From Azolla caroliniana (lineage: Eukaryota; Plantae; Polypodiophyta): DNA of 64,000 nt. A program made the position numbers and the translations under genes. Under the pieces are notes generated by a model. That model saw only the letters and a program-made list of their open reading frames with translations, did no database searches and was not told where the DNA came from. Below are positions 12,158 through 40,721 of this stretch, piece after piece. The number at the start of each line of letters is the position of its first letter. Position 1 is the first letter of the stretch. The stretch is from the NCBI GenBank assembly GCA_043228905.1, contig JBHGNT010000020.1, positions 12,586,001 through 12,650,000 of the forward strand. Direction: 5' to 3'.

Positions 12158-14029
12158 ATGAGGAAGGGTTCATCTATAGTCGAGTTTTCCCATTGTGCAA
12201 TATCAAGAAAGCCTACTATTGATTCCAAGGAGCTCCTTGTCAATGGATCCACATCTCACTCGATGCGCATCATGGAATACTCTCCTCCGACTTTTGATCC
12301 TAAGGTTCTCGAGTGGAGAGATGACATAATGATCAATAACTCGGAGGAACTAATGCATTTGGTACCATCTTCAAACCAATCAAACCATAATCATACTTCT
12401 TCTTCTACTACTACTACTACTACCACCACCACCACATCGAAGATTCCTAATAATGTAATGAAGCAACCTACTCGAACAGTCTTGGGAAACAAGTCTAGTC
12501 CATTCAAATCCATCCGAGAAAAGATAATAAGATCCTTCTCCTTCAAGGAGAAAAACCCAAAGCAAGTCAATGTTATTCCAAGAAAGGAGAAAGAAAGTAG
12601 TAGTACTACTAGGCAGGTAGTCCATACCTCGCACACGGATTCATTGCCTATCAATGGACCTCTTCAAGTCGGTATAGATTCATTCCGATCGGCCAACACT
12701 TACTCGGACATGAATGTGTTACCTCCTAGTATTGATTCTCCTCCTCGAGACAGTATAGATTCATTCCGATTCGCCGACACTTACGCGGTTCCCGATTCGT
12801 TGCCTACCAATGGGCCTCCTCGAGATGGTATAGATTCATTCCGATTGGCTGGCACTTCCTCGGTCACCAATGTGTTGCCTCCTAGTATCGATCCTCCCCC
12901 TCGAGATGGTATAGATTCATTCCGATGGGCCGACACTTACTCGGTCGCCAATGTGTTGCCTCCTAGGATCCATCCTCCCCCTCGAGATGGTATAGATTCA
13001 TTCCGATCGACCGACACTTACGCAATGGAGCAGCAAATGGCGACCAATCTGGAGGAGCGAGCTAGAGAATTGGAAGAACGAGTGAGCACATTCGAGCACC
13101 AATCCCGAATGATGAGCATCAAGGGTCAAGCTCCTTATAACACGAGCTCGATCCGAGAATGTTTAATGCAATACTCCGAATCCAGTGATGATGTGAGTAC
13201 AATAAGTGAGTTAGAGCTCATTAAGAGGTGTGTTGAGGAGAAGAGAGATCTTGCCCTAGAGTTAGCTTCCGAGATCCGAGCTCGGGCTGCTGAACGGGCC
13301 AGCTCGGATGAGGCCCTTCGCAATATGAAAGCAGATATGGAATTTAAACTCAAGCTCCTTCAAAGAGAGAATGAAGTGAAGGTCCGAGAAACCATAGAGG
13401 AGATGGAGTCAGAGTGGTCTATGAAGCTCGAGGTTGCGATGTCCAAAGGCATGAAAACACGAGAGAGATTGAATAGGATTGCCCAAGAGAAGGTGGAGCT
13501 ACACAAGGAAATCTCTTTGTTAGCATCGAAGAAGAATGAATTGGCGGAGCGAGTGCATGAATGTGAGGAGACAATCAAGGCATTGAGAATGAGCAAGGTG
13601 GGAAGCATGGGATCGAGCTCACAAGAGAAGGAGGAGTTGCCATGGAGTGTTGTTGCCCTAAAAAAAGAGTATAGGGAAAAAGAGGAGGGGCTAGTAGAGA
13701 AGCAAAGTGAGTTGGAGAAGGTTTGCAATGAGAAGGTGAAAGCTTTGCAAAGCCTAAGACTTGTCCTAGGGGAGCAAACCAAGTGTCGAGAATTCGGATC
13801 GTTTAGTGAGGATCTAATGACAATGATTCGGATGGAGATGGCGAGGCTTTCTGGTATTGAGCACGCATTGAGGCAAGAAGTTGAAACCCACAAGAAAGAG
13901 ACACTCGTTGATCGAATGGAGAATAGTGGCCTCATGGCCGAGAGTTTGGGTGGCATGACGAGAAATGATAGCACCGTTGGATCAAGATATCATGTATCCC
14001 TCGACAATTTGGAGGATCATATCAAGATG
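12158..14029 (+). CDS. Exon 1 (624 codons) of a plant coiled-coil protein resembling the Arabidopsis At3g55060/At2g39300 family
   Basis: Long clean ORF. Motifs EEKRDLALEL..EIRARAAERAS, SEWSMKLE and MEMARLSGIEHALRQEVE are recalled from that family. Phase-0 donor ATG|GTATGC at 14029/14030. Confidence 0.85.
12630..13025 (+). repeat. In-frame tandem repeat in exon 1 (5 copies, units of 25-27 aa)
   Basis: Core TATAGATTCATTCCGAT at 12673, 12754, 12829, 12910 and 12991 (spacing 81, 75, 81, 81 nt); peptide PPRDGIDSFRxADTY. Confidence 0.93.
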
Positions 14030-14555
14030 GTATGCTCATTCATAAAATTCACTACCACTACCTTAGCACTTAGAATTTCAATGTAGTTCCTTATGTATAT
14101 AATGAAGTATGTGATCATTGGAAATTTAATCACTGATTTTACTTACACATGAAAACAATGTATATCAATATGAATTTCCTCGATATATTATGAACAAAAT
14201 CAGTACTTAACATCTTGCATGGTTTGTACAATGTGCTTATATAATAATTACCAAAGAGGGATTCAATTGTCATGTTGAAAAGTTATGACCATATCTTGTG
14301 AGTTTAAGATCGGCCCATGCTAACTACACCACTCTATTTACTTATCCCTTACATCATTACCCACCTAAACGATAAATCCCTAATTGACAAAGCTAACAAT
14401 ACCCAAATTGTAGCACCATTCGATCAACACTTTTGACTAGGTTATACATAATAAATTGATTACAATATTTTAAAGCTATGATGCCATAAAAGCTTCCATA
14501 TGTGTGTGTATATATATTGTGTAGCCTCACATTTGTTCTTTATTCAATTTTCTAG

Positions 14556-14705
14556 TTCTGTTGTAGGGAAAGTGAAGAGGTCAAGATGCTTCATCATGAT
14601 ATAAGGGGTCTCGTGCAAGAACGAGACAAACTCCAACAAGAGATGAACAATCTCCATTCTGCACTCACACTTACAAATCAAACAATCAAGGACCTTGAAA
14701 GACGG
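14556..14705 (+). CDS. Exon 2 (50 codons) of the coiled-coil gene
   Basis: Acceptor ttttctag|TTC and donor CGG|GTAAGA, phase 0/0; encodes FCCRESEEVKMLHHDIRGLVQERDKLQQEMNNLHSALTLTNQTIKDLERR (heptad pattern). Confidence 0.8.
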
Positions 14706-14778
14706 GTAAGATTTTGAATGAATAAAAAGCAATATTGGTTCATATAATTGTGTTTCTTTCATAGATGGCTAGAAGGCA

Positions 14779-15195
14779 TATATGATATAGTCACATGTTT
14801 TGATCAATGCTATATAAAATGGGTGTACGAATTGTGGATCTCTACATGGAATTACCATGAATCAATAAAATAGAAGAGTAGATGAGACTAATAATGACCA
14901 CTCAATCTATCCCTTGGAATGTGGCTTACACATTTTGTAGGATCCCTACCCATGCTTAGTTTAATTGAACAAATTGTATGTAATGGTATATATGATATAG
15001 TCACATGTTTGATCAATGCCATATAAAATGGGTGTAAGAATTGTGGATCCCTACAATGAATTACCATGAACCAATAAAAGAGAAGAGTAGATGAGACTAA
15101 TAATGACCACTCAACCTATCCCTTGGAATGTGGCTTACACATTTTGTAGGATCCCTACCCATGCTTAGTTTAATTGAACAACTTGTATGTAATGG
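14779..15195. repeat. ~209-bp tandem duplication in intron 2
   Basis: tatatgatatagtcacatg...gtatgtaatgg repeated with few substitutions. Confidence 0.9.
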
Positions 15196-15541
15196 ACATG
15201 TCACTACCACTACATGGGAGGGGGGGTAAAATGAGAGAACAAGCAAGACTGTAAATAGACCATCTCTAGGACATTATATATTATTTTAAACGAGAGAAAC
15301 AATCCATGTGATAAAGCTATGCACCCAACTAGAGACTTTGCATGTAAGGACTTTAGTGGTGGACTACATGGGCACATGACTATATAACTTATAGGTAGTG
15401 GGCTAGGACAAATACAATCAATAAGATATTAGTAGTTGGTTAAGGCCTTAATATTGTGGAGCCATGTTGAGTATGTTAGCATAGGCTTCATATGGTCCAG
15501 ATTCCACACAAAGATGAAGTAACAAGTAACTAGGTGGAAAA

Positions 15542-18122
15542 TGTTGGGAATTCGGTCCCTCCAGATGGGATCCGGAGGAGCTGGATCGGACGAGCCGAAG
15601 GAAGGAACCGGACCGGACCAGAAGGTATCTGGATGGATCCGGTGTGAACCGGATCCAGGAACATATCTGCAAATATGTTTTTGGTGTGCTTGTAAAGGCT
15701 ATATTTGTAAATAGTCCTAAATTCATATAAGTATAAATATGACTTAGGGCAATCACTGGTTGTTGTGGTTGTTGTTAGTTGTATTATAGTTGTACAGAGA
15801 GAGAGAGAGAGAGAAGAGAAACCGCCGGTTGGCGAAGATATAGAGCACGAGGTCGTTGCCTCTAAGTCTCCTGTTGTACCTCCTTTCTCATATAGTGATA
15901 GTTGGAGTCTGCGGGCTCTCATGGGTTTTCCCTATATTAGGGTTTTCCACGTAAACATCCTGTGTCGTCTCTTCTCCGTAAGTGTACAAACCTCCATTTC
16001 TATTTTGGTTCTCTCATAAAGTGTTTGAGTCTCGGCTGTGGCCGAGCGCTATTCCGTACAAACTCGTATCAGAGCGAACAAGAAAATGGAAGAGTCATTC
16101 GGAAACATGTTCAAGCTCACCGGCACCAACTACCCAGTGTGAAAGTTGAAGATGAGGGACATGCTCGTGGTCAAAGATCTCTGGCTGCCGGTACAGTTCG
16201 GGGACAAGAAACCAGACAAGATTGATGCCATGACATGGGAGGTGATGCACATGAAGCTGGCAACATACATACGGTGCTTCATCGACATGAACCTGTAAAA
16301 CAACTTCAATGAAGAAAATCGGTGCTGGAGAGCAAAAACACCGTAAATCGAGTTTCAGTATTCAGGAAGTTAGTGAGACTCCGGTACCAGGACGGATCCA
16401 ACATGGTGGAACACATGAACGCATTCTAGGGGCTCATAAATAAAACAACTTCGCTTGAAGTACCTCTGGCCGACGAGGTACTTGCATTGCTCCTGCTCAG
16501 TTCCCTCCTAGACAGTTGGGAGACACTAGTTGTCACTTTGGGCAATGCCGGGCCGGAAGGAAAGCAGTTGTCCCTAGCAAGGGTAAAATAAAGCTTGCTA
16601 GATGAAGAAGCTTGCCAGAAAGTTCCGGAATCCGGAACCGACCCGAAGGCTTTGGTTACGAGAGATGACCAAAACTGGGGAAGAGGTGGAAATCAGAGTC
16701 CCCAAAATCGGGACAAATTGGGGACGAGATCAAAGTAAAGGGGGAGGCCTACTTCCTTCTATTGTGGGAAGCCGGGGCACTTCCAGAAGAACTGTCGGCA
16801 TTTCCGGAATGAGAAAGGGGTCGACACCACCGATTTAAAGAAGAGTTCGTACCAAAATGGTTCGGATCGGAGAGGTCAGGATCGGAAAGGAACGTCGACG
16901 ATTGCGACAAGTGAAGAAGAATTGTTGCTCATCATTGAGGAGAATGAGTTAAACCTTGTCGGCGACGAGACAACGTGGGTTGTCGATTCTGGCGCATTGT
17001 TCCACCTAACACCGGACCGGAAATGCTTCTCGTCCTACAGAGTCAGAGATCTCGGCTATGTCCAAATGGGGAATGAAGGGTCATGCCGAATTGTTGGCAT
17101 AGGAGATGTGTGGTTGAATACATCAACCGGGTGCAATTGCTACTGAAGGATGTCCGACACGTTCTGGAGGTTTGGTTGAGCTTGATATCAGCCGGTCGGC
17201 TAGATGATGAAGGCTACACGGGTAGCATCCGGAACAGAGTAATGAAATTTAGCAAATGAACCATGATTGTGGTTCGAGCCCGGAAGATCAACACGCTGTA
17301 CCTGATGCACGCTTGGATATGCCGAGAAGAAGTAAACGTAGTATTCGACAATGCCGGTGAGCTGTGACACAAGAGACTGTGTCATATGAGCCAGAAGGGG
17401 ATGAAAAGACTTGTTGAAGACAACCTCATTCCGGAGGTGAAAGACGTGCATCTTGAGAAGTGCACCGATTGCTTGGCCGACAAGCAAAACCAAACCTCCT
17501 TCCGGTCAAGACCACCGATGAGACGGAATGCACCACTGGAGCTGGTGCATACCGATGTGTGTCAAGTGGACATGAAATCACATGCCGGATCGCAGTACTT
17601 CGTGACGTTCATAGACGACCACAACCGAAAGTTGTAGGTCTCACCGTTGAAGACGAAGGATCATGTGCTGTCCGTCTTCAAGGAGCTCCACGCGAGAGTG
17701 GAAAGGGAAACCAGCTGGAAGCTAAAGGCGGTTTGAGTAGATAACGGCGGTGAATACCGGGAGCAATTCGAGGAGTACTGCCGGTCGAAGGGAATCCGGC
17801 TCGAATTCACCATGCCGAAGATGCCGGAATTGAACAGGCTGGCTAAACGGATGAACCGGACCATAATGGAGAGAGTCTGAAGCATACTAGCACATGCAAA
17901 GTTATCCAAGACGTTTTGGCCTGAGGTGCTGATGACAACGACGTACGTGATTAACATATCACCGTCAACATCCTTGGAAGGAGACTCACCGCATAAAGTA
18001 TGGACCGGTAAAGATGTGTCTTACCAGCATCTGAAGGTGTTTGGTTGTCTCGCTTATGTGCATGTTGCAAAGGACAAGAGAGCAAAGTTGGATCCAAAGT
18101 CCGGGACAAGAGAGCAAAGTTG
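15542..18122 (+). mobile_element. 3'-truncated, degenerate Ty1/copia (Tnt1/Tork-like)
   Basis: 5' LTR TG..CA 15542-16060; mutated tRNA-iMet PBS TCGTATCAGAGC 16064-16075; broken gag, protease (WVVDSGA) and integrase (VHTDVC); stops within integrase at a short duplication (ggacaagagagcaaagttg). Confidence 0.9.
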
Positions 18123-20210
18123 AATCAAAATAATGATCGTACATCTCTTGCATGACTTATAAAAACAATGCCCTTTAGATTTGCAATATCATTTTCAATA
18201 TGTCAAAGATATTGCAACGGTGGATCACAAACAACATTAAGTTTACAATCAACTTTGGTTTTGAATGAAATCATGATTTTCACAAGAAAAATGAAAAAGA
18301 CAATGATCAAAATTCCTTGTGAATAGAGAAAAATCTTGGATAGGCATTCTTGGCCTATAGTAGAATTTCTCCACAAATTTGCCAAGTTGAAGAAATTGTC
18401 AGGCATTTTGAGATTACCAACATTTAATGAATGATAATATTGTACATGGCGATTTTGTCTCAAAATGAAGAAGAAAATGATCATTACATCAAAATGAGAA
18501 ATATTTTTCCATCAAATAGAAGTAGAGTATTCATGATGGAATATTTCCACGTTAATGACGAAATCTTCATAAATCAAGAACGTTCACATCCTAGCTTTGG
18601 GTACCAACACAATTAGACACTCTTAAATGCTCTTGGATTCTCAAAAACATTTTAAGAATGCATACCAATAGCAACCTAGAGGACAAATCCATTGTCCTAA
18701 CCTCTAGGTATGTAAAAATTTCCATGACTTACAATAAGGCAGACAAATCTCGTTTCCTAGAATCTCATAAGTTTTAGATTACCTGATTTATCCCCCAAAT
18801 CAAGTTACAATCTTGAGTGTCAATGTGACTACCTTGCTATTGGTACTTTTAAAAAAGAAAGAAAGATACACATTAGTATATTACTTGAAAACTCTACATA
18901 GAGAAAACAGAAGGAGACATTTCATCTCAAATCTATTATAATATACAAATCTTGTCGTTGCCATAGAACATCATCCGAACCCAATAGATCATCGTATTGA
19001 CCACATAGTGTATGGAAAAATAACATCTAGAATTCAATAAGCATAGTGTTGAGATGTATGTCAACATTGTTAAAAATAGAATCACATCTCGTTTTCCATA
19101 TTCTCGAAAGAGCCAACGACGTAATAGTATGCCAAATAATCAGATTTTTAATTATGAACTGTGGAATATAAGAAGGAAATGAGGTGAGAGAGAGGAAGAG
19201 ACATCCACACATCCGATGTAGAGTATACATGCCATGCAAAGAATCAGTGATGATTCTGTGCAGCGGAAGAACTTTGTGTGTGTGTGTTGTGTGGAGAGAG
19301 GAAGAGAGAGAGAGGAAGATACACTTCTAAACAATAAGATAAATGGGGGATGATTAACAAGATTATAGCTAAAGACCTTTCTCTATATTAATAAGCATCA
19401 AGTTACAAAATATCCACAATGAGGTATATATACAACTCATGTGCAAGGGTGCACATGTGTGAGGAGAATATAGGTACACGGTTGTAAGTCCTATATTAAA
19501 TATACTTGGTAGTGGAGGAACTAAAATGTATCCCTACTTACGTACAAGTACAAGATCCTATTTAAGGGTTTAAAAGGTTAACACACTAACTAGATTCTAT
19601 CTAGGTAACTACTAAGTTACATGGTTAACTAAATGGCTAAACTTAGTTGAGCTTGATATCTCAACATGCCACAACCTACCATCATCATCAACATTAAAGT
19701 ACATAACATCACCCACAACATTAGTTACTTTAGCTCCTAACATAACTTTTAAAAGAGAAAAATAACCACACCATATCTGATTACTTGAGGGGCACCATGA
19801 AGCCATAAATTGTCCCAATGCCACTTGCATATCATTACACATAATAGCACCTCCTCGAACTGAATGCATCGATAAAGATTGTAACGGTCGATTCATAACA
19901 TGACATCCCCATGAAAGAACATTACATGTAACTGATTCATCCAAAGAAGCCCAATTTACCCTAGGACAACTACCAAGCAACTCGCATCAGAGAAGACAAT
20001 TACAGGTCAAAGGCTATCTCAACAAGACATCCATTGTCAAAGGCATATTCCGAACCAAAATATTTTTAACAACAGATTAGCTTGTGAGAATTCCATTAAA
20101 AAATCTATATATTGGTAAGGTTGTTTTAAAGAAATGGAAATTCTAAATAAAGGCCCACGTTAATGAGGGTTGCCACACTCCACCTATTGTCGGACATGTA
20201 GTAGACAGTT

Positions 20211-23200
20211 TGTTGAGAAAAACGCTGAATATTGCTCGGCCACAGCCAAGTCTTGAACACTTTGATGAGAATGGAGAACACAGAAATGAGAACTAAAGAG
20301 TGAACACAAGATGTTTACGTGGAAAACCCTAATAGGGAAAAACCACGGGAGCCCACAGACTCCGAACTATCACTATGAAGAGAAGGGGTACAATCAGAGA
20401 CTCGTAGGCAACAATCTCGAGCTCGGTTTCTTCGCCGACCGGCAGTTACAATAGAGTATCGCTTTGTATCTCTCTCTCCCTCTCTGTCGCTCTCTTCTGT
20501 ACAATAGTTACAACAACAATGACAATGACAATGACAACCTTATAAAGTGATTGCCCTAAGTCATATTTATACTTAAATGATCTTAGGGCTATTTACAAAT
20601 ATTTATACTGGGGCAAAGATCTTGTCGAAATCCACTCCTTTCTTCTGTTGAAAACCCTTCACCAGGATCCGGGCCTTGTACCTCGGTGGATTTCTGGTGT
20701 CTCCCGGTTTCAACTTGTACACCCACTTGTTCCAGAGTGCTCTCTTCCCTTTCGCCAACTCTGTTAGTTCATATGTGTGGTTCTCATGCAGGGAATCCAT
20801 CTCATCCTGCATGGCTCTCAACCACTTGCGGCTGTGGGTGTCTCTCTTTGCTTCTTCAAAGCTTTCCGGCTCCCCCTCATTGGTTAGCAACACATGCTCT
20901 GCATCCGGAAATCTCCGGGGGGCTCTTCTCTCTTGGAGAGGATATCTCTATGCTTGGTTTCTGACTGCCGGTTCCTCCGTTTGTTCCTCATCCTCATCCG
21001 ATTTGGGATCTTGTCCGGTTCCAGTGTCTTCTTCTTCTTCTTCTTCTTCGGTCTGTTCTGTTTCTTGTCCATATTCGGCCGGTTCGTCGAGTGTCATCCG
21101 GTTAGCGGCTAGCATCTGGTTTTCAACGAATGATTTGGAGTTCATCACCTTCTCCGACTCCCAGTCGGCAATGGTTCTGTCTTCCATGAAGACTATGTCC
21201 TGACTCCGGAACACCTTCTTGTCAACCAGATCCCACACTCGGTAACCGAACTCATCATCGCCGTATCCAAGGAATATGCATGGCATGGACTTCGGATCTA
21301 GCGTTGCTCTCTTGTCCTTTGCAACATGCACATATGCGAGACACCCAAACACCTTAAGATGACGGTAAGATACATCTTTACTGGTCCATACTTTTTGAGG
21401 TGAGTCTCCTTCCAAGGGTGTTGAGGCTGATCTATTTATCACATAGGTCGCCGTCGTCAGTGCCTCAGCCCAAAACGTCTTGGGTAACTTTGCATGTGCT
21501 TGCATGCACCAAACCGTCTCCATTATGGTCCAGTTCATCCTTTCGCCCCGTTTAGTTCCGGCGTCTTCGACATAGTAAAATCGAGCCGGATTCCCTTCGA
21601 TTTGACCGACAATACTCCTCGAACTGCCCCCGGTATTCTCCTTCATTATCTGCTTGAACCACCTTCAGCTTCCGGCCAGTTTCTCTTTCCATTCTCGCGT
21701 GGAGCTTCTTGAAGACGGATAACACCTGATCCTTCGTCTTCAATGGTGAGACCCATAGCTTCTGGTTGTGGTCATCTATGAACGTCACAAAGTATTGCAA
21801 TCCGGCATGTGACTTCGTGTCCACTTGACACACATCGGTATGCACTAGCTCAAGTGGTGCATTCCGTCTCATCAGTGGTCTTGACCGGAAGGAGGTTCGG
21901 TTTTGCTTGTTGGCCAAGCAATCGATGCACTTCTCAAGTTGCACCTCCTTCACCGGAATGAGGTTGTCTTTGGCAAGTCTCTTCATCCCCTTCTCACTCA
22001 TGTGACACAGTCTTTTGAGCCACATCTCACCGGCAATGTCGGATGCTACGTTCACTTCCTCCCGGCATATCCGTGCATTCATCAAGTACAGTGTGTTGAT
22101 CTTCCGGGCTCGAGCCACTATCAAGCTTGCCTTGCTGAATTTCATAACACCGTTCCGAATGCTATTTGTGTAGCCTTCATCATCTAGCCGATTGGCTAAT
22201 ATCAGGTTCAATCGAACCTCCGGAATGTGTCAGACATCCTTCAGCAGCAATTTGCATCCGGTTGATGTTGCCAACAACACATCTCCTATGGCAATAATTC
22301 GGCATGTGCCTTCATTCCCCATTCGGACACAACCATGATCACTAGTTGTGTAGGATGAGAAGCATTTATGATCCGGTGTTAGGTGAAACGACGCTCCGGA
22401 ATTGACAACCCATGTTGTCTCGACGTCGACAAGGTTTAACTCATTCTCTTCGGTAATGAGCATCAGTTCTTCTTCACTTGTTGCGATCACTGACGTTCCT
22501 TTCCGATCCGGGCCTCTCCGGTCCGAACTGTTTCGGTCTGAACTCTTCTTCGAATTGGTAGTGCCGGTTTCTTTCTCCGTTTAGAAATGCCTGCAGTTCT
22601 TCTGGAAGTGTCTCGGCTTCCCGCAATAGAAGCACATGGGCCTCCCCCTTGACTTCGACCTCATCCCCGATTTGTCCCGGTTTTGGGGACTCTGATACCG
22701 GCCTCTTCCCCGATTGTGGTCATCTTTCGTGACCAAGGCCTTCGGATTAGTTCTGGACTCTCGGTCCTTCTGGTGAGCTTCTTCATCTAGCAAGCTTGAT
22801 TTTACCCTTGCTAGGGACAACTGTTTTCCTTCCAGCCCGGCGTTGCCCAACGTGACAACTAACGTCTCCCAACTATCCAGGAGGGAACCGAGCAAGAGTA
22901 ATGCTAGTACCTCATCAGAGAGAGGTACTTCCAACAAGGTTGCTTGTTGTATCAGCCCCCGGAAGGCATTCATGTGCTCCGCCATACTGAAGTTGTCCTG
23001 GTACCGGAGCCTCACTAACTTCCGGAATACCGAAACCCGATTAATGACATTCTTGTTTTGGAACATGATGCCGATCTTCTCCCAGAGTTCATGAGCCTTG
23101 CTCTCTTCATTGAAGTTGTTGTACAGGCTCATGTCGATGAAGCACCGGATGTATGTCGTCGTCTTCATGTGCATCACCTCCCACACTATGGCGTCGATCT

Positions 23201-29391: not shown

Positions 29392-32300
29392 GAAAACCAA
29401 CGATTGATAGGGGATCTGCAACAAATCGCTCTCAAAAAACAACAAACACAGCAACAACATGGGGAGTTAGCGTTACGGGTACAACAACTCGAAGTAGGGT
29501 TGCAACAACAAGGATCAAGTCCCCAAGGATTTCATAAAGAGCCCAAGATTGGACTTCTTGTGAAATTTGATGGAACGCGATCACAATTCATGGGATTCCT
29601 TAATCAGGTACGCTTAGTCATCCAAATGCATCCTTCTCGATACCCATTGATGCATCCCGAGTCGGCCTAATAGGCACGTTGTTTAGTGGCTCAGCCTTAG
29701 CATGGTTCGCTCCGCTTCTAGAAAAACAATCGCCCTTGCTTAATAACTTTGAAGACTTTATTAGTGAGTTTAAAGCCTGCTTTGGAGATACCGACAACAT
29801 CCGGACAACGATCAACAAAATCCGACGATTGCGTCAAGGCGATCGTCCAGCCTCTGCCTACGTGGCGGATTTCCCTCTACTCGCCTGAGATATCTCTTGG
29901 GATGATCAAGCACTAATAGAGCAGTTTCGCTATGGCCTGCGAAACGATGTCAAAGATTTACTTTTAACCTTCCCCGAAGAACCAAAGTCTCTTACGGAGG
30001 CAATTAGTCAAGCGGTCCAATGCGACAACCGCCTTTTTGAACGGCATTTGGAACGTCAATTACAAATACCACGCTTTAGGGCGGAGCCCACATACGCCTC
30101 AATTGTGGCTAAACCGTTTGCACGCGACGTACCTCAAGCAAATACTTCGACATCGATGGAGATTGACACCATGCGTCTACGTGACCCATTATTGGAAGAA
30201 GAAAAACAACGATGACGTGCAAATCGATTATGTCTTTATTGCAGTGGACCAGGGCATATTGCAATCAATTGTCCCCATAGGCCAAGAAGACAGGTAAATC
30301 AAATTGTAGCCTGTACTAAACCCGAGTCAATTCTTCCCTTAGGAGTATCTAATAGTATTAATAATACTAATAGAGTGTCTGATAGTATTAATAGTACTAA
30401 TAGCCCAAGTATCTCAAATAAATTTGAAATCCTTAGTCAATTCGATGAAGAGTTAAACGATTGAGTCCAGCCAAAATAGGAGCCGTTCTGTACAACCCAT
30501 TAGTGGTTCCATTCCCTCCAAGCAAGTTAGCAATGTGTTCCTAGCCCAAGTCATGGTTAGTACTAAAAGTACTCCCCAAGTACATGTCCTAGCACCTCAA
30601 GATTGTGGAGCTAATTCCTGTTTCATGGATCGAAATTTTGCCCAAGCTTCTCAGATATCCTTAAGAAAACTTCCGTGCCCCACATCTGTAGTAGTCATTG
30701 ATGGTCGTCCCATTGCTTCCGGGAATATTGTAGAAGAGTCAGAACCCATTCAAGTTGTCCTAGGTAGTTTTGTGTGTGTAGTATCATTTAATATAATTAG
30801 TAGTCCAGAGCATCCCATTATCCTGGGATTACCTTGGTTTGAATTACATAATCCCAACATAGATTAGAGAACAAGAGAAGTCCGATATCGACAACCCCAA
30901 GAATCTACTCATCGAGTTTCGACCATTTCACTCCATCAATTATGCAAAGAAGGACACAAGGAGGCAATGTTCCTATTTGCAATATCAGTACATCCTTCCA
31001 GCACTATTAAGGAGGAATCCCTAGTGCAACGTCCGACAAAATATCATCCTTATGCCGATGTATTGGACAAGGTAAAAGCCGGTACTCTTCCTCATCATCG
31101 TCCCTATGATTGTCCCATCGATTTACAACCAAGAACAGAGCCACCATGGGGACCAATTTACAACTTGTCACCCACCGAGTTAGAAGTCCTTCGAGCCTAC
31201 ATAGAGGAGAACTTGACAAGTGGGTTTATTCGTCATTCGAAATCTCCAATCAGTGCACCCATCTTCTTTGTCAAGAAGAAAGATGGCTCACTTCGTCTCG
31301 TCGTTGATTACCGCAGCTTGAATAAAGTCACCATTCGGAATAGGTATGCACTTCCTCTTATATCAAGTCTTTTAGAGCGAGTTAATGGTGCCAAGGTTTT
31401 TACAAAAATTGATCTACGAGGAGCGTATAACCTCGTGCAGATCCGACCGGGAGATGAATGGAAGACCGCCTTTCGCACGCGGTATGGGCATTTCGAATAT
31501 ACTGTTATGTCGTTTGGTCTAACCAATGCACCTACAGTCTTCCAACACATGGCAAATGATATATTCAAAGAACTCTTGGATATCTGTTTGATCATCTATC
31601 TGGATGATCTATTGATTTATTCGAAGACCTAGGAAGAGCACGATTCTCATGTACTATTAGTACTAAAACGATTCCGCGAGAATGGTCTTTATGCCAAGCT
31701 AGAAAAATGTAGCTTTGACTGCAAGCAAGTGGAATTTCTAGGCTACGTCATCTCCTCAAAGCGCATCTCCATGGATCCAGCTAAAGTCCAAACTGTGCTA
31801 GAGTGGCAAATTCCACGGTCGGTATGAGATGTACAATGTTTTCTAGGTTTTGCTAACTTCTACTGCAAGTTTATACAGGATTACTCGAAGATTATTTTAC
31901 CTCTCACACAACTTACGAAGAAGGGACAAACATTTCTTTGGACCAATGAAGCGGACATGGCTTTTCGGCATCTTAAGAACGCCTTTACATCAACTCCTAT
32001 TCTAGCACAAGTGGATACAAACAAACCATTCATCATGGAGGCCGATGCATCGGATTTCGCCCTAGGTAGCATCCTTTCTCAACAAGGAGATAAAGAAAAG
32101 TTACATCCTGTGGCTTTCCATTCGCGCAAATTCGATGCCGCAGAAATCAACTACGAAATACATGACAATGAGTTATTAGCCATCGTGGATTCCTTTGTGC
32201 AATGGCGGTATTTCTTAGAGGGCTCTCCACATCAGGTCATCGTCTTTAGTGATCACAAAAATCTTGCTTATTTCCAGAACGCTCAGGTGCTAAATTGACA

Positions 32301-33371
32301 GCAAGCTCAGTGGGCTCAATTCCTCACGTGTTTTGACTTCAAAATCACATATCGACCGGGGAAGCAGCAAAGAAAAGTAGATGAGCTATCACGACGTTCA
32401 TATCTTGCACCTTGTCCTGGTGATCCAGCGTTTGATAATCAAAAGCAAGTAATCTTGGGACCAAGACGATTGCACACAACACAGATTTTTCACACCCCAA
32501 TGGATTCCCGGATTACCGATGCCATACGTGCGAACTTGAAGATAGACAGTTTTGCTCAAGACATTCTGGCGCACATTGATACCTCTTGGGCATCCTGTTC
32601 CCAATCTCAACAACCAAGTATGGACTACCGAAAATTCGAACATCATGATGGTTTGTTATTCTTTAAAAAGCTTGTATATGTCCCCGATTGCTCCTATCGC
32701 CTTCAAATCGTCCAAAATTGTCACAACACCCATATGGCAGGACATTTCGGTAGTACTAAGACGTTGGACCTCGTTCAACGATCTTTTTGGTGGCCCCATA
32801 TGTGACGTTTTGTCAACGACTACGTTCGGACTTGTGATGCTTGCTGCCGAGTAAAGATGCCCCGACACCATCCATATGGCTTGTTGGAACCCTTACCGAT
32901 TCCAAGTAAGCCGTGGCAGTCTATTTGTCTTGATTTTATCACAGATCTACAGGTGTCGAAGGGGTTCGATGCTATCTTAACCGTCGTCGATCGATATACT
33001 AAGATCACACATTTTGTGCCGTGTACTAAGGCCATCACTAGTGAGGAAACCGCCGCCCTTGTCATGCATGAGGTATTTCGGCATCACAACCTCCTAGACA
33101 GTATCATCAGTGACCGAGGACCTCAATTCGTCTCCAAATTTTGGCAGCATCTCTTCGAGATGCTTAAGGTCTCTTACAACTTGTCCTCCGGCTACCATCC
33201 CCAGACCAATGGGCAGGCGGAACGAACAAACCAAACGCTGGAACAATATCTCCGGTGTTTTCTGAGTTATCAACAGGATGATTGGACCGAGATTCTCCAC
33301 TTTGCGGAGTTTGCATATAATAATGTTGTTCCCTCCTTGACTCGGGTCTCCCCATTTTACGCTTATACCAG

Positions 33372-34333
33372 TGTTGCGGTATTCCGCGGGTATGTGTAGG
33401 ATCTTAGGCGGGACCGCGGGGGTCTTGAACTAGGGAGACAGATGGTAGAGTCCTTATGCTTTGCAGGCTTCGGTCCAGAACCGGCTTCCGGCTCCAACGA
33501 AGGTAGGGTTTCACAAAAGGACGGCTCACCGCGAATATGGACCCGACTCAAATATGTTACAAGGAAGATAGATATACACTAACATGAATATATATAACAA
33601 GAGTTTACAACAAGACGGTTACATGCCCCGAATCTAGTGGCTATTACAAACAATCGGCTAATACATCAAGATAAGAATGGGAACTGGCGAAGGGGAGTCA
33701 AGTGGGCCGCCGGGACCGCGATGTCCACCGTTGGTCACACCCCGAAGACGATGGAGTGTTCCCGTCTCGAACCGGCCGCCACACAAAACGCTCTCCATCG
33801 AGGAGAGGAAGCCGAATCACCAAGTGCCGCCACCGGAATGCCTAAAGCTGTCGTTGTAGGAACCCCCAAACCAAACCAAACTCTCACACGAAGAAGAGAG
33901 AGTAACACCCGGAGACCCCAAGTACATAAACCCTAACTCGCACGAACTCTCTCAAGAAGAAGAACCTAAAGAGAATACTAACTTCCACCCAAAAGAGGGA
34001 ACCAAACCTATCAGAAAATGAAGAAGAAGACTCAAATGAAACCCTAAACGAAATAGAGTGAAAAGACCAAAATGGAAACCCTAAGAGAACAAGAATAAGA
34101 TGTAGAGGAAGAACACTACCAAACCCTAGACCTAAGTGGTATACCCTCCTAACTCCAAAATGGGCAACCCTTTAACAAAGGGTGCTCCTTTCCTTTTATA
34201 GAACAAGGAGAGGGATGCGTTACAATGTGGGATAAATACTCCCCCTTATTCTATACACCGTTTCCTACTATACATGTGCAACATGTGCCCATTCCACCCC
34301 TGTTTCACACTATAGCCGGAAATCTTCACGACA
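33372..34333 (-). mobile_element. Solo LTR (962 bp) of the 4-bp-TSD gypsy group, inserted in the chromovirus integrase
   Basis: TG..CA termini similar to the LTRs at 52586 and 55352; 34140-34240 is the reverse complement of ~55490-55590; TSD CCAG/CCGG; removing it restores YAYTGSHP. Confidence 0.88.
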
Positions 34334-34544
34334 CCGGTTCTCATCCTCCTTGGTTGGTTAGTGATCGACACCCCGGAGCTACCTACCAATCCTCATGCCG
34401 AGGCGTTTCCTACTATACATGTGCAACATGTGCCCATTCCACCCTTGTTTCACACTATAGCCGGAAATCTTCACGACACCGGTTCTCATCCTCGTTGGTT
34501 AGTGATCGACACCCCAGAGCTACCTACCAATCCTCGTGCCGAGG
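34259..34544. repeat. ~143-bp tandem duplication spanning the solo-LTR/integrase junction
   Basis: cgtttcctactatacatg...gccgagg at 34259-34403 and 34404-34544. Confidence 0.92.
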
Positions 34545-35135
34545 ATCATTTGGAGAGGCTACACAAGATCCAGATAGATATCTCTACTCATCTTCGTCAT
34601 GCTCAACACAACACACAGAAGACTTATGCGGATCGTCATCGGCTTCCCTCCTCTTTTGCCATCGGAGATCGACTATGGCTCTTACGTCGTCACATCAAGA
34701 CTACTCGACCGTGCGACAAGTTGGATTATCGACGACTCGGTCCTTTCCGTATTACTAGTAAGGTTAATGATGTGACGTTCCGCCTTGATCTCCCTCCGCA
34801 TCTTCAGATACATCCGGTTTTCCATAGCTCTCTTCTTGAACCTTATAAAACAAACACTATTCCCGATCGTGTTACACCACCACTACCCCCGCTTGAGTTG
34901 GAAGCCGGCCCGGAGTATGAAGTTACTGCCGTCCTCGATTCCAAACTTGTTCGCAACAAACTTTATTATTTGGTCGATTGGCTCGGCTATAGTCCGAGCG
35001 AACGTACTTGGGAACTTGTCGAGCATGTCGCCAATGCTCAGGATCTTCTTGCTGAGTTCCACCGAAAGTATCCGGACAAACCCGGTTCGCAATTAGCGCC
35101 GACTCGTTCCACTCGTCGTCTTAAGGGGAAGATAG

Positions 35136-35205
35136 TGTCATGGCAAGACTCGAACCCATGACCTTATGTTATATGGGTCGAGCTCTTGACCATTACACCA
35201 TCTAT
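35136..35205 (-). other. tRNA-like (Pol III A/B-box) module at the start of the chromovirus LTR; copy at 28744-28817
   Basis: Minus strand reads AGA-TGGTGTAATGG-TCAAGAGCTCGACCCATATAACATA-AGGTC-ATG-GGTTCGAGTC-TTGCCATGACA, with tRNA-like A-to-B box spacing. Confidence 0.65.
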
Positions 35206-35428
35206 TGTAATACATAAGATATTATTTTCATTTAAGTTTTATTATAGGAAATTAATGTATATTCCAGATTTCTCTGGAACATTCTAGAAGCTTCAGGATT
35301 ACTCCTGAGAACACTATAAAAGAAGGCACTATGCGTTATTTTGAACCAAATTGGTTCAACGCCAGTCTTAAGCCTCATAGCCCTTTTGTACTTACTCTTC
35401 ACATAATATATCCTTTGTTATCATCATC

Positions 35429-35476
<48 letters not shown>

Positions 35477-35479
<3 letters not shown>

Positions 35480-38400
35480 ATTTTCTTTCTTTCTGTGCGT
35501 CTGTTTCTCTCCCTCCATCATTATCTACGTTCTATAGCTCCCTGGAAAGCTCTTTCAGAGAGATTTCTAACGAATGTTTATTTGCTAAATTCCGTTGCCG
35601 GAGTGAGGAGTTATGAGCATTTTCGTCCGCGGCCCTCTCGTGACCCCTCAAACTCAAGGTAGATTTTGAAACCCTAAATCGATTGAAAGGTACATTCTAC
35701 TTCTTCTATCATTTTATTAATAGTAAATATGCCAAGAGGAGTAAAAGACAATGATGATGTGATTGAAAGCCCAAACAATCAAATGCATACATTGTCAATG
35801 GAGAAGATCGCAACTATGTATATCTCATTTCAAGAGACAATGATGCATATGCAAAGTGAATTGTATGCTTGTAAGGAGAGGGAATTAACTCTTCAACATA
35901 CATTGGAAATGCAAAAGTTAGAGATGAAAGCTACTACATGCAATGAAGAACATGACTATTCAAATGCAAGATAATAGGATGCCTAAAATCGAAAGAAATT
36001 TTTTGAGTCTTGAAGCAGAAAAATCAGAGATTTTAGTGAAGGCAAATGCCGAAATAAAATCTACAATTGAAGGGAAGGAAGATGTGATCATGACAAGGTG
36101 GAAAGATGTTCTCTTGAAAGAAACACCAAAAATCACGCAAAAACATCCAAATACCATGGATGTGTTAGATGTAAAGGAGCAATATGAAATCGAAATCGAA
36201 AGAATAATATTGTCATTAGAGGTATGCAAGAGAATGAAATAGAGAATGCATTATCTCTTGGACAAAATATTACGAAATTCTTTGAGGATCACTTTGCTAT
36301 GCGAGATGTTATTGTATATGCCTCACATCGGGTTGGCAAAAAGCAACAAGAGGGAAAGACATCTCGAGCTATTGTTTGTACAATCCTCGATGAACGTAAA
36401 AGGGCAATGATTCTAGATAGTAGTAAGGTGTACTTAAAAGGGCAACAAAGGATAAAACTCCACAAGAGCAAGATTCGATATGGCCTGACTCCAAAGGGGA
36501 TATTGGGCGTGCTGGGATAACATGTATCTACCATGAGAGCTTAGATAGTTCTATCAAAGTATGCAAATATGATGGCTATAAGAGATACATATGGATAGAG
36601 GTTAATTTGGGGAAAGAGAAGTTGTATATAGTTGCATGTTATATTCCTCACAAAGACTCAAACTACTATAGTAGGTTTGGGTTAGATTGTGATGATCCTT
36701 TTACAGAGTTATGCTATGATATACTTTCATTTGAGAAGCTTGGTAAAGTTTTAATTATGGGAGGCTTCAATGCAAGAGTTGGAAATTTCCAAAATGTGGA
36801 GACATTTGAAGAAAATGTAGTAAAACATTGTCTATTGCGTGACTCAGAGGATTATGTCATGTCAGATTATGGAAAACTTTTGATACATATGCTAAATTGC
36901 ACAAAATTGATTATCCTAAATGGAGTAAAGGCATTCACATTGACAAACGTGCTCACATGTTTACCATCCTCAGGTGGAGGAAGTGTGGTTGATTATGTAT
37001 TAATGTTGGCATGTGATCTATCATTGGTGAATGTGTTTAAAGTTGGTTCGCTATCTCCGGACTCAGACCACACGCCATTGTACTTAGAGCTTGCAATTAC
37101 ACATTCCACTAGATGTCGTGAAGGGAAAGACGAAAAGAGATGTATCATCTGACCTTGCTACGAAGAGATGCTAGACTATGTACAAAGGTTATATATGCAT
37201 GAAGGTGTGGCTCCTATGGTTGAGAAAATTGAAACTCCATGCACTACATGTATCGATATTGAAGATATCAATAAGGGAATAAAGAAGATGGGAAGTGGGA
37301 AAGCAGCAGATTCAACCTAGGTCTCAAGTGAGCTTTTAAAATGGACAATGGCACACCCTCGTCATTGGATAATGACAATTTTAGAGCAAGCTATAAAACA
37401 AGGATTTCCAAATGATTGGCTTATGAATTGGATTAAACCAATATTTAAAGGTGGAGATAAGAATCAAGGAGCAAATTATCGTACAATAATGGTGAGCTCA
37501 ACTATTGCTAAATTATATAGTACTATTATGGAGCAAAAGATAAGCACATGGGCTAAGAGTACAAGCAAAAGAGCACTTGGGCAAGCCGGATTTAGACCAA
37601 AACACTCCACCATGGATCATTTGGTCACATTAAAAGTGATCATGGAAGAGAGTCGACTACAAGGAAGAACACTTTATTGTTGTTTTGTTGATTTCAAGAA
37701 AGATTTTGATATCGTACCACGAAGTGAGCTTTGGAATAGAATGGTAGACATTGACATGCCATTAGAGTACCGAGTTGCGGTTGCACGCCTATATGAACAA
37801 GTTAAATGCCAACTAAAAATGGATAGTGGATTCTCAAAGAGCTTTTTAAGTAACATGGGGGTCAAGCAAGGATGTCCACTATCACCCACACTCTTTGGCT
37901 TATGTATTGATAAATTAGAAGAAGTGGTGAATAAGGTTTCAAGAGAAGAAGGATTGAATGACCCAATTTGATGCAACATGTTATCTTATTGCTTCTATAT
38001 GTAGATGATGTGGTACTCTTCTCATATGATGTTGATAGTATGCAACATTTACTTGGGGTATTAGAAGAATTTTGCCATAGTAGTGGACTAGCAGTGAATG
38101 TGGAGAAAACAAAAATGATGGTAGTGCAAACCATCCAACCTCATCATTACCCTATGATCACATATAAAGGTGAACATATAAAATTTGTTCAAAGCTTTAA
38201 ATATCTTGGTATTGATGTACCTGCCACAAATAAATGGAGTGCATGCTTTGATTCTAGACTCCAAGCCGGTTGGAAATCATATTACCTTTTGGAGAACCAA
38301 TGCAACCAAAGTGATACTTGTGGATGGGAAGTAAAATTAATGTTGTTCAATGCCATGGTAACTCAAGTATTGCTTTATGGAGTAGAAGTATGGGGTGACG

Positions 38401-39329
38401 CCATCTCTCTTAATGCATGGAACGAGATTGAGAAAATTCAAAAGATGTTTTTAAGGAGGCAATTAGGAGTTAAATGCACTACCTCTTACCAGGTTATGCT
38501 CTTGGAAACGGGTGTTCGACCCATAGAACTATTGGCACTCCAAAGAGTATATAAATACATTACAAAAGTCAAGAATATGCCGAATCATCAATTACCACAT
38601 CTTTCTTGGAATGTTGGATGTAAGCTACAAAAGAATCATAAAAGTAAGATTCTCTCATCTGGTTGGGTTGTTGACATAAAGAAATGGTTTAGACGATGGG
38701 GTGTGGATGATCTTTTAGAGATTTCAGGCAATGCTATGCAATATGTAATGATTGAGGAAAGGTCGGTGGAATCATTAAGGATGAAGTGGGAGGATGCTAA
38801 GAGGACAAAGCTAGAATACTACATTGCAAATGTCAACCCTGAATGTTGGTCTCAATATAAAGCAAGAATGTCTATTGATCGTATCCAACCTTATCTCATT
38901 ACCAATATGAGTAGGAATGCTCGTAGAGCCCTTACACTACTTCGCACTCGATCTCACAAGTTAGGTATTGAAGTTGCATCATGGTATCAAAATGTAACGA
39001 ATTTGAAGACATGTAAAGTATGCAATGAAGGCATGGTAGAGGATGAATGTCACTTGCTCTTCACATGCTCGACATATAGTGCAATTTGTTCAAGATATGT
39101 TGACATACTAAGAGGGAGTGATAATTGAAGATCCATACTTAAGACACCACCTAGAAGGTTGAGCTCATATGTGTATGCTTTATTAACACATAGAGACTTT
39201 GTGGTTCAACATATGAATACCCCTTCTTAGGAAGGAGACATATATCAAGAACACATGTATACTCTGGTCCCATAGGTCAAAATTGGCCTCTTTATGGACG
39301 ATTCTAATTCTAATTCTAATTCTAATTCT
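35477..39329 (+). mobile_element. Near full-length two-ORF LINE (RTE-X/L2-like) inserted in the (CT)n tract of the chromovirus 3' LTR
   Basis: Coiled-coil ORF1 fragments 35729-36520; AP endonuclease (MGGFNARVG, SVVDYVL, SDHTP); RT (KQGCPLSP, LLYVDD); CX2C..EDE.H.LF.C motif; (AATTCT)n tail; LTR resumes at tcctctctcgggagtc. Confidence 0.93.
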
Positions 39330-39666
39330 TCCTCTCTCGGGAGTCTTACGCAGTCCCGTCCTCTTAGTACTAATAGTACTTCCCTTTTTTTAGTACTAAT
39401 TCTCTCCCTGTTTTAGTACTATTCCTGACAGTGGGAAGGTATTCTAGTTTGGTTTTCGTCAATCATATCTGATCCCCAATAACGATAGAAACATATATCT
39501 ATGATGTGATTTAAACAACTCCAACTTTCTTAAAAATGTTACGTTGTGAGATAATATTCACACCTTATTTCCATAGGTTATAAATATTACTATTATTAAA
39601 TTGTTGGCATGGTCAATGATCTTGGATTCTCCTAGATGTCTTCCATGTGTGTCTATACTATATCTA

Positions 39667-40364
39667 TGTTACGGGCATGACCATATAATATCCCATGGTA
39701 AGTTGTATCATAGTATTCTACACACAAGGATAACTTGTGAGGGTTAACCGCGAGTTTAGAGAAGGGCGGATTACTTTTAATCCTAGGGATTGTTCAACAA
39801 CCCATTAAGGCCAAGTGTGAACTTGCTTGGGGGCCTTAGGTTCGTTTATAAATAGGAGGTCTAGCTACCCTCATTTGAGACATTATTGACTACGTCGAGA
39901 CTCTGATCTTGTGGTGATAAACTCTTGTAGCGAGCGTGCTAGCACCAGGTACGAGCCGTTGCCACAACGGTGGTGTGGGACGCCGATTGAGGTTTGAGTC
40001 CATCTCGACCCCTTCACTTGGGGGTGGTCGGGTGGATCAACACCCTTCTTTCTCTCTCTTCTCTATTTTCCTATCTATTATTTCCTTATATTTTGCTTAC
40101 ATTAGGATAAAGTTCTAACCATTGGTATCAGAGCCTCGACGTAGTCGATAATATATCAAATGAGGGTAGTTAGGCCTCATATTTATAGCCAGACCTAAGG
40201 CCCCTAGGCAAGTTTACACTTGGCCTTAATGGTTGTCTCAATCCCTAGTATCAAAAGTAATCCTCCCTACATTAAACCCTCGGTTAACCCTCACAGGTTA
40301 TCCTCGTGTGTAGAATACTACGATACAACTTACCACGAGATATTATATGGTCATGCCTGTAACA
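39667..40364. mobile_element. LTR-derived fold-back element: LTR + tRNA-iMet PBS + inverted copy of the LTR's first ~240 bp
   Basis: TGTTAC..GTAACA ends; TSD ATCTA (39662-39666 and 40365-40369); arms 39667-39907 and 40127-40364; TGGTATCAGAGC at 40123-40134. Confidence 0.9.
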
Positions 40365-40490
40365 ATCTATCTATACATTTAGACATGTATAAATGATATA
40401 TGTGTATATGCCTATTCAATATCTATTTTTATATGGTTTTTTGTTCATAAATAAGTCAATCTAATGTTTCATGACGGTTTTGGATTGTAG

Positions 40491-40721
40491 CTTACAGATA
40501 AGGAGAGAGAAACCCAAAATATATATGAAGAGCTAGGAAGAACTAGAGATCAAAGAGATGCTATGAAGAAGGATGCTGACTTCATGTGTCAAGAGGCCAT
40601 TCGACTCATGACCCAACTTGAAAAACTAAACAAAAGAGTAGAAAAATTGGATGATGAAGTAATGCTAAAGGATGGACAATTATCAATTCTTTTGGGAGTT
40701 CTTCAGAGTTCTAGTGATTAG
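40491..40721 (+). CDS. Terminal exon 3 (76 codons + stop) of the coiled-coil gene
   Basis: Acceptor ttttggattgtag|CTT, phase 0; encodes LTDKERETQNIYEELGRTRDQRDAMKK...KRVEKLDDEVMLKDGQLSILLGVLQSSSD*, resembling the family C-terminus KKIE.LDEDILLKEGQITIL as recalled. Confidence 0.8.
   Translation, partial: LTDKERETQNIYEELGRTRDQRDAMKKDADFMCQEAIRLMTQLEKLNKRVEKLDDEVMLKDGQLSILLGVLQSSSD

What the first reader, a model, noticed from the sequence alone, without database searches (positions are those of the whole stretch)
12158..40721. Hidden three-exon gene with a 25.8-kb intron made of nested retrotransposons
Seen: the ORF track shows only exon 1. Two further phase-0 exons with canonical GT/AG sites (14556-14705 and 40491-40721) extend it to 750 aa, ending in a motif recalled from the At3g55060/At2g39300 family. 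Intron 2 (14706-40490, 25,785 bp) holds two copia copies, an L1, a non-coding LTR element, a chromovirus with two nested insertions and a fold-back element. Known: in Arabidopsis, heterochromatic introns need IBM2/ASI1-EDM2 to avoid premature polyadenylation. Inference: this gene has the same problem, with heat-shock LTR promoters in both orientations inside it.
Basis: partly seen in the sequence, partly recalled or inferred. Interest (0 to 1): 0.7.

Follow-up and report, generated by a model that had tools for sequence, protein, structure and literature searches.

The report
Fern gene with transposon-stuffed giant intron
A conserved coiled-coil plant gene, likely from a fern, has its last coding exon 25.8 kb away behind an intron filled by nine partly nested jumping-gene insertions that a relative largely lacks; it is likely still spliced across them, which is a well-known situation in ferns.

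Summary
The three exons join with GT/AG sites into a 750-aa frame. A profile of 58 homologues hits only these three frames, in order, and fern homologues run unbroken across the exon 2/3 joint. The protein is a fern branch of the DUF7653-containing coiled-coil family and lacks the DUF7653 domain itself.

About 85% of intron 2 is nine retroelement insertions. An antisense L1 hosts three of them and a chromovirus hosts two. A relative's contig lacks 21.3 kb of this stretch. Exon 3 is under purifying selection, so full-length splicing is likely, but no spliced read was seen.

Corrections: the 'fold-back element' is a rearranged LTR. The heat-shock motifs are real but are a trait of two abundant LTR families. 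ASI1-like and EDM2-like genes exist in the genome, but this gene's dependence on them is untested, and in rice only a minority of such genes respond. Transposon-filled introns over 10 kb are common in Ceratopteris (17,745). The scan noted a similar 21-kb nested block elsewhere in this genome.

Verdict: real, a clean example, ordinary in kind.

The parts
12158..14029 (+). Coding exon 1 (624 codons; start codon uncertain). Low-complexity N-terminal part with a ~27-aa repeat, then family coiled-coil
   Evidence: P0001 is 83% identical over residues 290-624 and reads into the intron at the same donor
14030..14555 (+). Intron 1, 526 bp, GT-AG, phase 0
14556..14705 (+). Coding exon 2 (50 codons)
   Evidence: 47% to Ceratopteris residues 595-641; family HMM E 1e-8
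14706..40490 (+). Intron 2, 25,785 bp, GT-AG, phase 0; in-frame stop 4 codons in and an AATAAA at 14721 just behind the donor
   Evidence: same position and phase as a ~650-bp intron in the paralogue in L004
14775..15195 (.). Tandem duplication of a 211-bp unit, 95% alike
15542..18108 (+). Copia A: 5' LTR 15542-16060, primer-binding site, broken gag-protease-integrase; cut off at the 3' side, no RT, no 3' LTR
18849..26703 (-). 5'-truncated L1-type LINE block with a 20-bp target duplication (18829-18848 / 26704-26723); L1 pieces 26699-26348, 24411-23881, 20207-19664, 19234-18951
   Evidence: pieces are contiguous in uninterrupted family copies; duplication; RVT_1 hit; absent from L142
19235..19666 (.).
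20211..23883 (-). Copia B inside the L1: 5' LTR 23883-23363, primer-binding site, broken gag-pol, internal deletion of most of RT/RH, partial second LTR 20602-20211; target duplication not clean; LTR K2P 0.057
24417..26345 (-). Non-coding LTR element inside the L1 (LTRs 24417-24850 and 25926-26345, K2P 0.086, near-perfect 5-bp target duplication); both LTRs carry heat-shock-element arrays upstream of a TATA-like box
26887..28743 (.). Single-copy unannotated DNA; with 39431-39598 it forms the block that received the chromovirus; absent from L142
28744..39430 (+). Chromovirus (Ty3/gypsy: protease, RT, RNase H, integrase, chromodomain; frames broken by stops), 5-bp target duplication, LTR K2P 0.04; both LTRs carry a perfect four-unit heat-shock element ~20 bp before the TATA box
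33372..34332 (-). Solo LTR of another family inside the chromovirus integrase; its right junction is tandemly duplicated (145 bp)
35475..39326 (+). Two-ORF LINE with RT and a 6-bp tandem-repeat tail, inserted at the (CT)n tract of the chromovirus 3' LTR
39667..40364 (.). 'Fold-back': one 454-bp LTR + primer-binding site + inverted copy of the first ~240 bp of the LTR; TG..CA ends, 5-bp target duplication
   Evidence: empty site in L142
40491..40721 (+). Coding exon 3 (76 codons + stop) with the conserved C-terminal family motif
   Evidence: 52% to Ceratopteris residues 644-710; HMM E 3e-20; purifying selection against L139 and L140

Best explanation
This is a likely functional host gene for a long coiled-coil protein of the DUF7653-containing plant family, whose last intron swelled to 25.8 kb through nine retroelement insertions and is likely still spliced out as one ordinary GT-AG intron. 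Shown: exon structure, homology, nesting order (L1 before copia B, the non-coding LTR element and a solo LTR; chromovirus before a solo LTR and a LINE), empty sites in a relative, constraint on exon 3. Inferred: the inserts were methylated and silenced (CG decay is clear, CHG decay weaker), which keeps their promoters and poly(A) sites mostly quiet, so polymerase reads through and exon 2 joins exon 3. Inferred with lower odds (about 0.3): read-through at this locus measurably needs the ASI1/IBM2-EDM2 complex, whose genes are present. The protein likely acts as a coiled-coil scaffold or adaptor; its partner is unknown.
For: 750-aa open frame with canonical sites. The Ceratopteris protein aligns 595-641 to exon 2 and 644-710 to exon 3. 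Family HMM hits only the three exons. Exon 3 has one copy and two distant paralogues in the genome (3 of 5 candidates), so there is no nearer exon 3. A paralogue has a same-phase ~650-bp intron at this joint. L142 joins 18121-18848, 26699-26886, 39599-39667 and 40365-exon 3, lacking 21,260 bp. Exon 3 versus L139: 1 of 183 non-synonymous sites differ against 36 of 390 flank sites (Fisher p 7e-6); versus L140: 4 of 183 against 44 of 390 (p 6e-5). C-to-T changes in the two LTR pairs backed by target duplications: CG 11 of 33 against CHH 15 of 225, p 6e-5. In Ceratopteris, 17,745 introns exceed 10 kb, large introns are CHG-methylated and gene length does not correlate with expression (PMC9477723 passages).
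Against: No spliced read or contig confirms either joint. Constraint on the window's own branch, the one that matters for the swollen intron, is only borderline: 1 of 183 against 11 of 390, Fisher p 0.064, Poisson p 0.035. CHG decay is not significant in the two best-backed LTR pairs (3 of 28 against 15 of 225, p 0.32) and only becomes so when copia B and the fold-back arms are added (15 of 68 against 24 of 397, p 1e-4). A stop and an AATAAA lie directly behind the exon 2 donor, and sense-strand LTRs lie further in. The relative's contig does not reach exon 2, so the ancestral intron length is only bounded (over 3.0 kb), and L139, L140 and L142 are low-coverage metagenome contigs.
Confidence: 0.8

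Rival explanations
1. The insertions have effectively cut the gene. Most transcripts stop at a poly(A) site just behind exon 2 or in the sense copia A LTR, giving a ~678-aa protein without the conserved C-terminus, and exon 3 is a recent relic.
For: In-frame stop and AATAAA within 21 bp of the donor; 13 sense AATAAA in the intron. The youngest dated LTR pair differs by only 4%, a short time for a 231-bp exon to decay. Window-branch constraint is borderline.
Against: Exon 3 changed at only 1 non-synonymous site (conservative V to L) on the window's branch against about 5 expected at the flank rate. Acceptor and donor are intact. AATAAA is common in this AT-rich DNA. Ferns tolerate such introns.
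Confidence: 0.12
2. The intron acts as a heat-responsive switch. Heat-shock factor binds the four LTR arrays and starts sense and antisense transcription inside the intron, which lowers full-length mRNA or yields exon-3-only or truncated isoforms under heat.
For: A perfect four-unit element sits ~20 bp before the TATA box in both chromovirus LTRs (sense), and arrays sit in both LTRs of the non-coding element (antisense). New ONSEN insertions in Arabidopsis sometimes supply alternative start or end sites (PMC12112155 abstract).
Against: The motifs are family-wide: 27 of the 30 best chromovirus LTR copies keep four units (these were picked by likeness to the query, so the share is biased up), and 17 of 18 copies of the other family keep three. 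The families have about 4000 and 1800 candidate places. CG decay points to silencing. The nearest sense LTR promoter is 5 kb from exon 3, behind a LINE. The same abstract says most full-length ONSEN insertions are simply spliced out.
Confidence: 0.1
3. The long intron is an assembly artefact that stitched repeats between two exons.
For: The intron is mostly repeats, and no raw long reads were available to check it.
Against: Target duplications close around the L1, the chromovirus, the non-coding element, a solo LTR and the fold-back. Removing the blocks gives the relative's sequence in the same order.
Confidence: 0.03

Closest known systems
Transposon-expanded long introns of Ceratopteris richardii (PMC9477723; abstract and passages read)
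   Same: Fern host gene with a >10-kb intron built from retroelement insertions; signs of methylation in the intron
   Different: Here the genome is only 523 Mb, so such an intron is probably rarer; I could not count long introns in this genome. An empty-site relative is at hand.
Heterochromatic introns served by ASI1/IBM2-AIPP1-EDM2 in Arabidopsis and rice (PMC7145194 and PMC9910501 passages; PMC9292364 and PMC4417168 abstracts)
   Same: Transposon-bearing intron in front of a conserved last exon, with candidate proximal poly(A) sites; ASI1-like and EDM2-like genes in the genome
   Different: No H3K9me2, methylome, poly(A) or mutant data here. My searches listed no paper on this complex in ferns (listings and abstract starts only).
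DUF7653 (Pfam PF24670) coiled-coil proteins of seed plants; the At3g55060/At2g39300 label is recalled
   Same: Homologous N-terminal coiled-coil and C-terminal segment with the terminal motif
   Different: The region of the DUF7653 domain (profile ~600-750) is missing here, and Pfam does not score this protein or the Ceratopteris and Adiantum homologues tested.
Heat-responsive LTR retrotransposons such as ONSEN (PMC13602373 abstract start; PMC12112155 abstract)
   Same: Heat-shock-element arrays next to the TATA box in the LTR
   Different: ONSEN is a copia with shown heat activation; here they sit in a broken chromovirus and a non-coding LTR element, and induction is untested.

Membership tests
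Spliceosomal GT-AG intron in a host gene | Canonical donor and acceptor, frame kept across the joint | tested here: met
Spliceosomal GT-AG intron in a host gene | Homologues continuous across the joint; intron position conserved | tested here: met
Spliceosomal GT-AG intron in a host gene | Spliced RNA across the joint | tested here: inconclusive
   only two thin contig sets, RNA status a guess; exons 2 and 3 not covered
DUF7653-containing coiled-coil family | Homology over the N- and C-terminal coiled coils | tested here: met
   19 of 24 scanned profile hits carry DUF7653; HMM of 58 hits matches all three exons; Atlas top 6 hits for the Ceratopteris homologue are DUF7653 clusters at 0.97
DUF7653-containing coiled-coil family | PF24670 domain in the protein itself | tested here: not met
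   no hit in the exons, P0001 or P0002, nor at this locus in the genome search; so filed as a relative lacking the domain
DUF7653-containing coiled-coil family | Orthology to At3g55060/At2g39300 | not tested
   no Arabidopsis protein was named among the hits looked up (10 of 150); the paper search gave only table labels
ASI1/IBM2-EDM2-dependent heterochromatic-intron genes | Intron carries heterochromatin (CHG methylation, H3K9me2) | tested here: inconclusive
   mutation footprint only: CG significant, CHG significant only in the wider set
ASI1/IBM2-EDM2-dependent heterochromatic-intron genes | Genome encodes ASI1 and EDM2 | tested here: met
   two consecutive BAH exons at C4:3113.7-3114.9k match only rice ASI1 BAH 7XPJ/7XPK significantly (E 4e-15, 1e-9); RRM not confirmed by Pfam. 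PHD genes on C1 and C21; 6 of 7 homologues of the C1 exon carry PF26055 + PF22908 (reading this as the EDM2 make-up is recalled). AIPP1 not searched
ASI1/IBM2-EDM2-dependent heterochromatic-intron genes | Premature polyadenylation when the complex is lost | not testable with these tools
   needs mutants and 3'-end sequencing
Chromovirus (Ty3/gypsy) | PR-RT-RH-IN order with C-terminal chromodomain, LTRs, polypurine tract, target duplication | tested here: met
   clade (for example Tcn1) not tested
Fold-back (FB) or MITE transposon | Multi-copy family with long terminal inverted repeats | tested here: not met
   relatives match as single LTRs; LTR + inverted arm with a (near) target duplication in 2 of 30 loci, the window included
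Heat-activated LTR promoter | Three or more alternating nGAAn units near the TATA box | tested here: met
Heat-activated LTR promoter | Heat-induced transcription | not testable with these tools
   no heat-stress RNA run was offered

The most novel reading that the evidence does not exclude
Transposon insertions have made this conserved fern gene heat-switchable: four heat-shock-element LTRs in both orientations and proximal poly(A) sites compete with ASI1/EDM2-guarded read-through, so heat shifts output between full-length and C-terminally cut protein. Close relatives with the empty (L142) or secondarily shrunken (L139) intron would give a natural experiment and a first fern test case of the ASI1-EDM2 pathway.
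Probability: 0.1. Interest if true: 0.6.

Novelty: new member of a known kind. Interest (0 to 1): 0.27.

Why it matters
As it stands it is a gene-annotation gain (an ORF caller would cut this gene at exon 1, as happened to P0001) and a clean record of how one intron grew several-fold by nested insertions in a small fern genome. It would matter more as a test locus. The ASI1/IBM2-EDM2 pathway is described in Arabidopsis and rice in the papers I saw, its genes are present here, and orthologues with much less inserted DNA exist for comparison.

Tried and rejected
RNA: no RNA holder was listed on record. Laying the two offered contig sets gave two short exon-1 contigs in X1 (157 nt with 0 differences, 184 nt with 3; only 8 pieces shown, 8 more cut), no joint, and nothing on exon 2 or exon 3. 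This says nothing for or against splicing.

The first metagenome scan, with P0001, confirmed 0 of 598 stretches, so no relative covering exons 1-2 was obtained. An upstream first exon like the paralogues' was not found within 22 kb (best E above 0.4 outside exon 1); a weak candidate near 9265-9471 (E 1.3) was not accepted. Extra exons inside intron 2: rejected. An alternative acceptor 11 nt further into exon 2 was considered by eye; it would need a different donor, and homologues align with the residues it would remove.

A fold-back transposon family: rejected. PF12047 rang nowhere, controls included, so it was uninformative. The ASI1 RRM was not confirmed, and the Atlas gave only generic BAH clusters. 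No absolute ages are given, because no call supplied a substitution rate for this lineage. No structure or complex job was run, as no binding claim is made.
Full report
Setting. The window lies on contig C20 of a 523-Mb, 1503-contig genome. The closest named homologues of the gene are from Ceratopteris and Adiantum, so the host is likely a fern with a small genome (inference).

The gene. The three stated exons give 2253 nt, 750 aa and one terminal stop, with GT-AG, phase-0 joints. The joined protein matches Ceratopteris KP509_03G062200 at E 8e-70. That protein maps to exon 1 (170-507), exon 2 (595-641) and exon 3 (644-710), so exons 2 and 3 are neighbours in an annotated homologue. A profile search found 154 relatives, 150 listed. 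I scanned 24 of them and 19 carry DUF7653; named ones among the 10 looked up include avocado, cotton and Welwitschia proteins. An HMM from the 58 hits over 600 aa among the first 70 (P0001 left out) hits only the three exons in the window, in order; the next score is E 1.4. The seed alignment held the window's exon 1 but not exons 2 or 3. The DUF7653 segment itself is absent from this protein. The At3g55060/At2g39300 label is recalled; the one paper found used it only as a table label (passages). Exon 3 has no second copy in the genome, only two paralogues on C2 at 44% and 35%. One has an intron at the same codon and phase, about 650 bp long (length read off the printed sequence). Both paralogues have an extra upstream frame that resembles the N-terminus of longer family members; I found none here, so 'three exons' means three coding exons found.

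The intron. From sequence reading, self-comparison and Pfam, nine insertions fill about 85% of it (21.8 of 25.8 kb, summed from the coordinates in parts). Copia A (sense) keeps its 5' LTR and broken gag-integrase and is cut off at 18108. An antisense L1 spans 18849-26703 with a 20-bp target duplication. In 14 of 14 other family copies examined its two central pieces are adjacent; the piece towards the RT also follows directly in 13 of 14. It was split by a solo LTR, copia B and the non-coding LTR element. A chromovirus (28744-39430, 5-bp duplication) holds a solo LTR in its integrase and a two-ORF LINE in the (CT)n tract of its 3' LTR. The LINE has a 6-bp repeat tail, unlike a typical L1 (recalled; clade untested). 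LTR divergences are 0.086 (non-coding), 0.057 (copia B, pair not backed by a clean duplication) and 0.04 (chromovirus). Every coding element in the intron has broken frames. The 'fold-back' is an LTR of an abundant family (3768 candidate places, 40 scored), followed by its primer-binding site and an inverted part of the same LTR. One other of 30 loci shows a shorter version with a near duplication.

Relatives. A scan with exon 3 confirmed 4 of 506 stretches. L142 carries 3.0 kb upstream of exon 3 and matches the window at 80-93% in the order 18121-18848, 26699-26886, 39599-39667, 40365-exon 3. It lacks the L1 block, the block around the chromovirus and the fold-back, 21,260 bp in all. Its first 1.7 kb match neither the window nor other fetched loci, and exon 2 is not reached, so that intron is over 3.0 kb. 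L142 has a tandem copy of the L1 target word; both its copies share a base that differs from both window copies, which fits an independent duplication better than loss of the L1 (inference). The 2-kb single-copy part of the middle block may be a loss in L142 rather than a gain here. L139, closer in exon 3, shows 300 bp of the same L1 family, antisense, joined to the last ~23 bp of the fold-back. The simplest reading is that this lineage shared both insertions and later lost what lay between, but it is one contig at low coverage.

Is exon 3 still used? Against L139 it differs at 3 synonymous and 1 non-synonymous position, against L140 at 5 and 4, while the 3' flank differs at 36 and 44 of 390; both contrasts are significant. 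On the window's own branch it is 1 of 183 non-synonymous sites against 11 of 390 flank sites, p 0.04-0.06. That favours continued use, modestly. No RNA evidence bears on the joints (see Tried and rejected).

Silencing and the ASI1/EDM2 idea. In the two LTR pairs backed by duplications, C-to-T changes hit 11 of 33 CG, 3 of 28 CHG and 15 of 225 CHH sites: CG is significant, CHG is not. With copia B and the fold-back arms added, CHG is 15 of 68 against 24 of 397. Past methylation is therefore likely, and heterochromatin is plausible. Among 13 BAH matches, one gene on C4 has two consecutive exons whose only significant PDB matches are 7XPJ/7XPK, the structures deposited by the rice ASI1-SUVH6 paper (PMC9910501 passages). 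Its RRM was not confirmed. Two PHD genes look like EDM2. So the machinery is probably there. In rice, however, about 11% of genes have heterochromatic introns and only 93 such genes were among the 454 affected in partial osibm2 mutants, a count the authors call an underestimate (PMC7145194 passages). I put dependence of this gene at about 0.3. Searches listed no paper on this pathway in ferns; I saw only listings and abstract starts, and the library lacks most subscription journals.

Heat-shock motifs. All 9 perfect three-unit matches in the window fall in intron 2 (0.6 expected), 8 in four LTRs, two sense and two antisense. They are inherited family traits: 27 of 30 and 17 of 18 examined copies keep them, against 0 of 29 in the fold-back's LTR family. 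Any gene that hosts these abundant families has the same motifs. One search listed no fern heat-responsive LTR study among its 20 of 83 papers.

Comparison and verdict. In Ceratopteris, transposon insertion into introns made exceptionally long genes, 17,745 introns exceed 10 kb, large introns are CHG-methylated, and length does not predict expression (PMC9477723, abstract and passages). Azolla introns average twice those of Salvinia (PMC6786969 passage); the length distributions are in figures and supplements that I did not open and could bear on how rare 25.8 kb is in a small fern genome. Other papers: PMC4417168, PMC9292364 and PMC12112155 abstract and outline only; PMC2864245 passages, not used for a clade call. 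The finding is real and well resolved, a new example of a known kind. Its upside is as a test locus.

Noticed in passing
window 39667-40364; L018 (G000:C10:1662370-1662874); possibly L122 and L117: LTR followed by an inverted copy of its own 5' end, the whole flanked by a target duplication, so both ends are U3 ends. Seen in 2 of 30 loci of one family; two looser cases without a clear duplication in a second family. Could be a recurrent aberrant reverse-transcription product that integrase still inserts (inference).
   Followed up: partly
window 28744-29030 and 24417-24850; loci L059-L088, L104-L121: Two abundant LTR families (about 4000 and 1800 candidate places) carry conserved heat-shock-element arrays next to the TATA box; their LTR starts resemble each other. 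Candidate genome-wide heat-responsive chromovirus lineage in a fern.
   Followed up: partly
window 35475-39326 and 908-1992: A LINE family with a 6-bp tandem-repeat tail; both copies (95% alike) sit at (CT)n tracts, suggesting a liking for microsatellites. RTE-X/L2-like by recall, clade untested.
   Followed up: no
L139:1-390: A closer relative has L1-family DNA joined to the last ~23 bp of the fold-back just before exon 3, suggesting a large deletion that shrank the intron again.
   Followed up: partly
G000:C4:3113.7-3116.1k (L056, L089); G000:C1:1105k and C21:1236k (L096, L098): ASI1/IBM2-like BAH gene and two EDM2-like PHD genes in this genome.
   Followed up: partly
window 12638-13030: Exon 1 holds an in-frame ~81-bp (27-aa) repeat in several copies; the relative's protein P0001 has fewer, so it expanded or contracted recently.
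   Followed up: no
window 42324-64000: Downstream of the gene lies another nest: a copia with 97%-alike LTRs holding an inverted copia piece, an inverted duplication around its 3' LTR (48871-49372 / 50224-50723), and a very young gypsy (55954-63260, LTR K2P 0.003) amid related opposite-strand pieces.
   Followed up: no
window 9265-9500: Short frame through a (GA)n tract followed by a strong donor-like site; weak likeness (E 1.3) to the family's N-terminus; might be a 5' exon of the gene.
   Followed up: partly
window 26887-28743: About 2 kb of single-copy DNA with no Pfam-tested frame, bounded with 39431-39598 by a 7-bp near-repeat; origin unexplained.
   Followed up: partly
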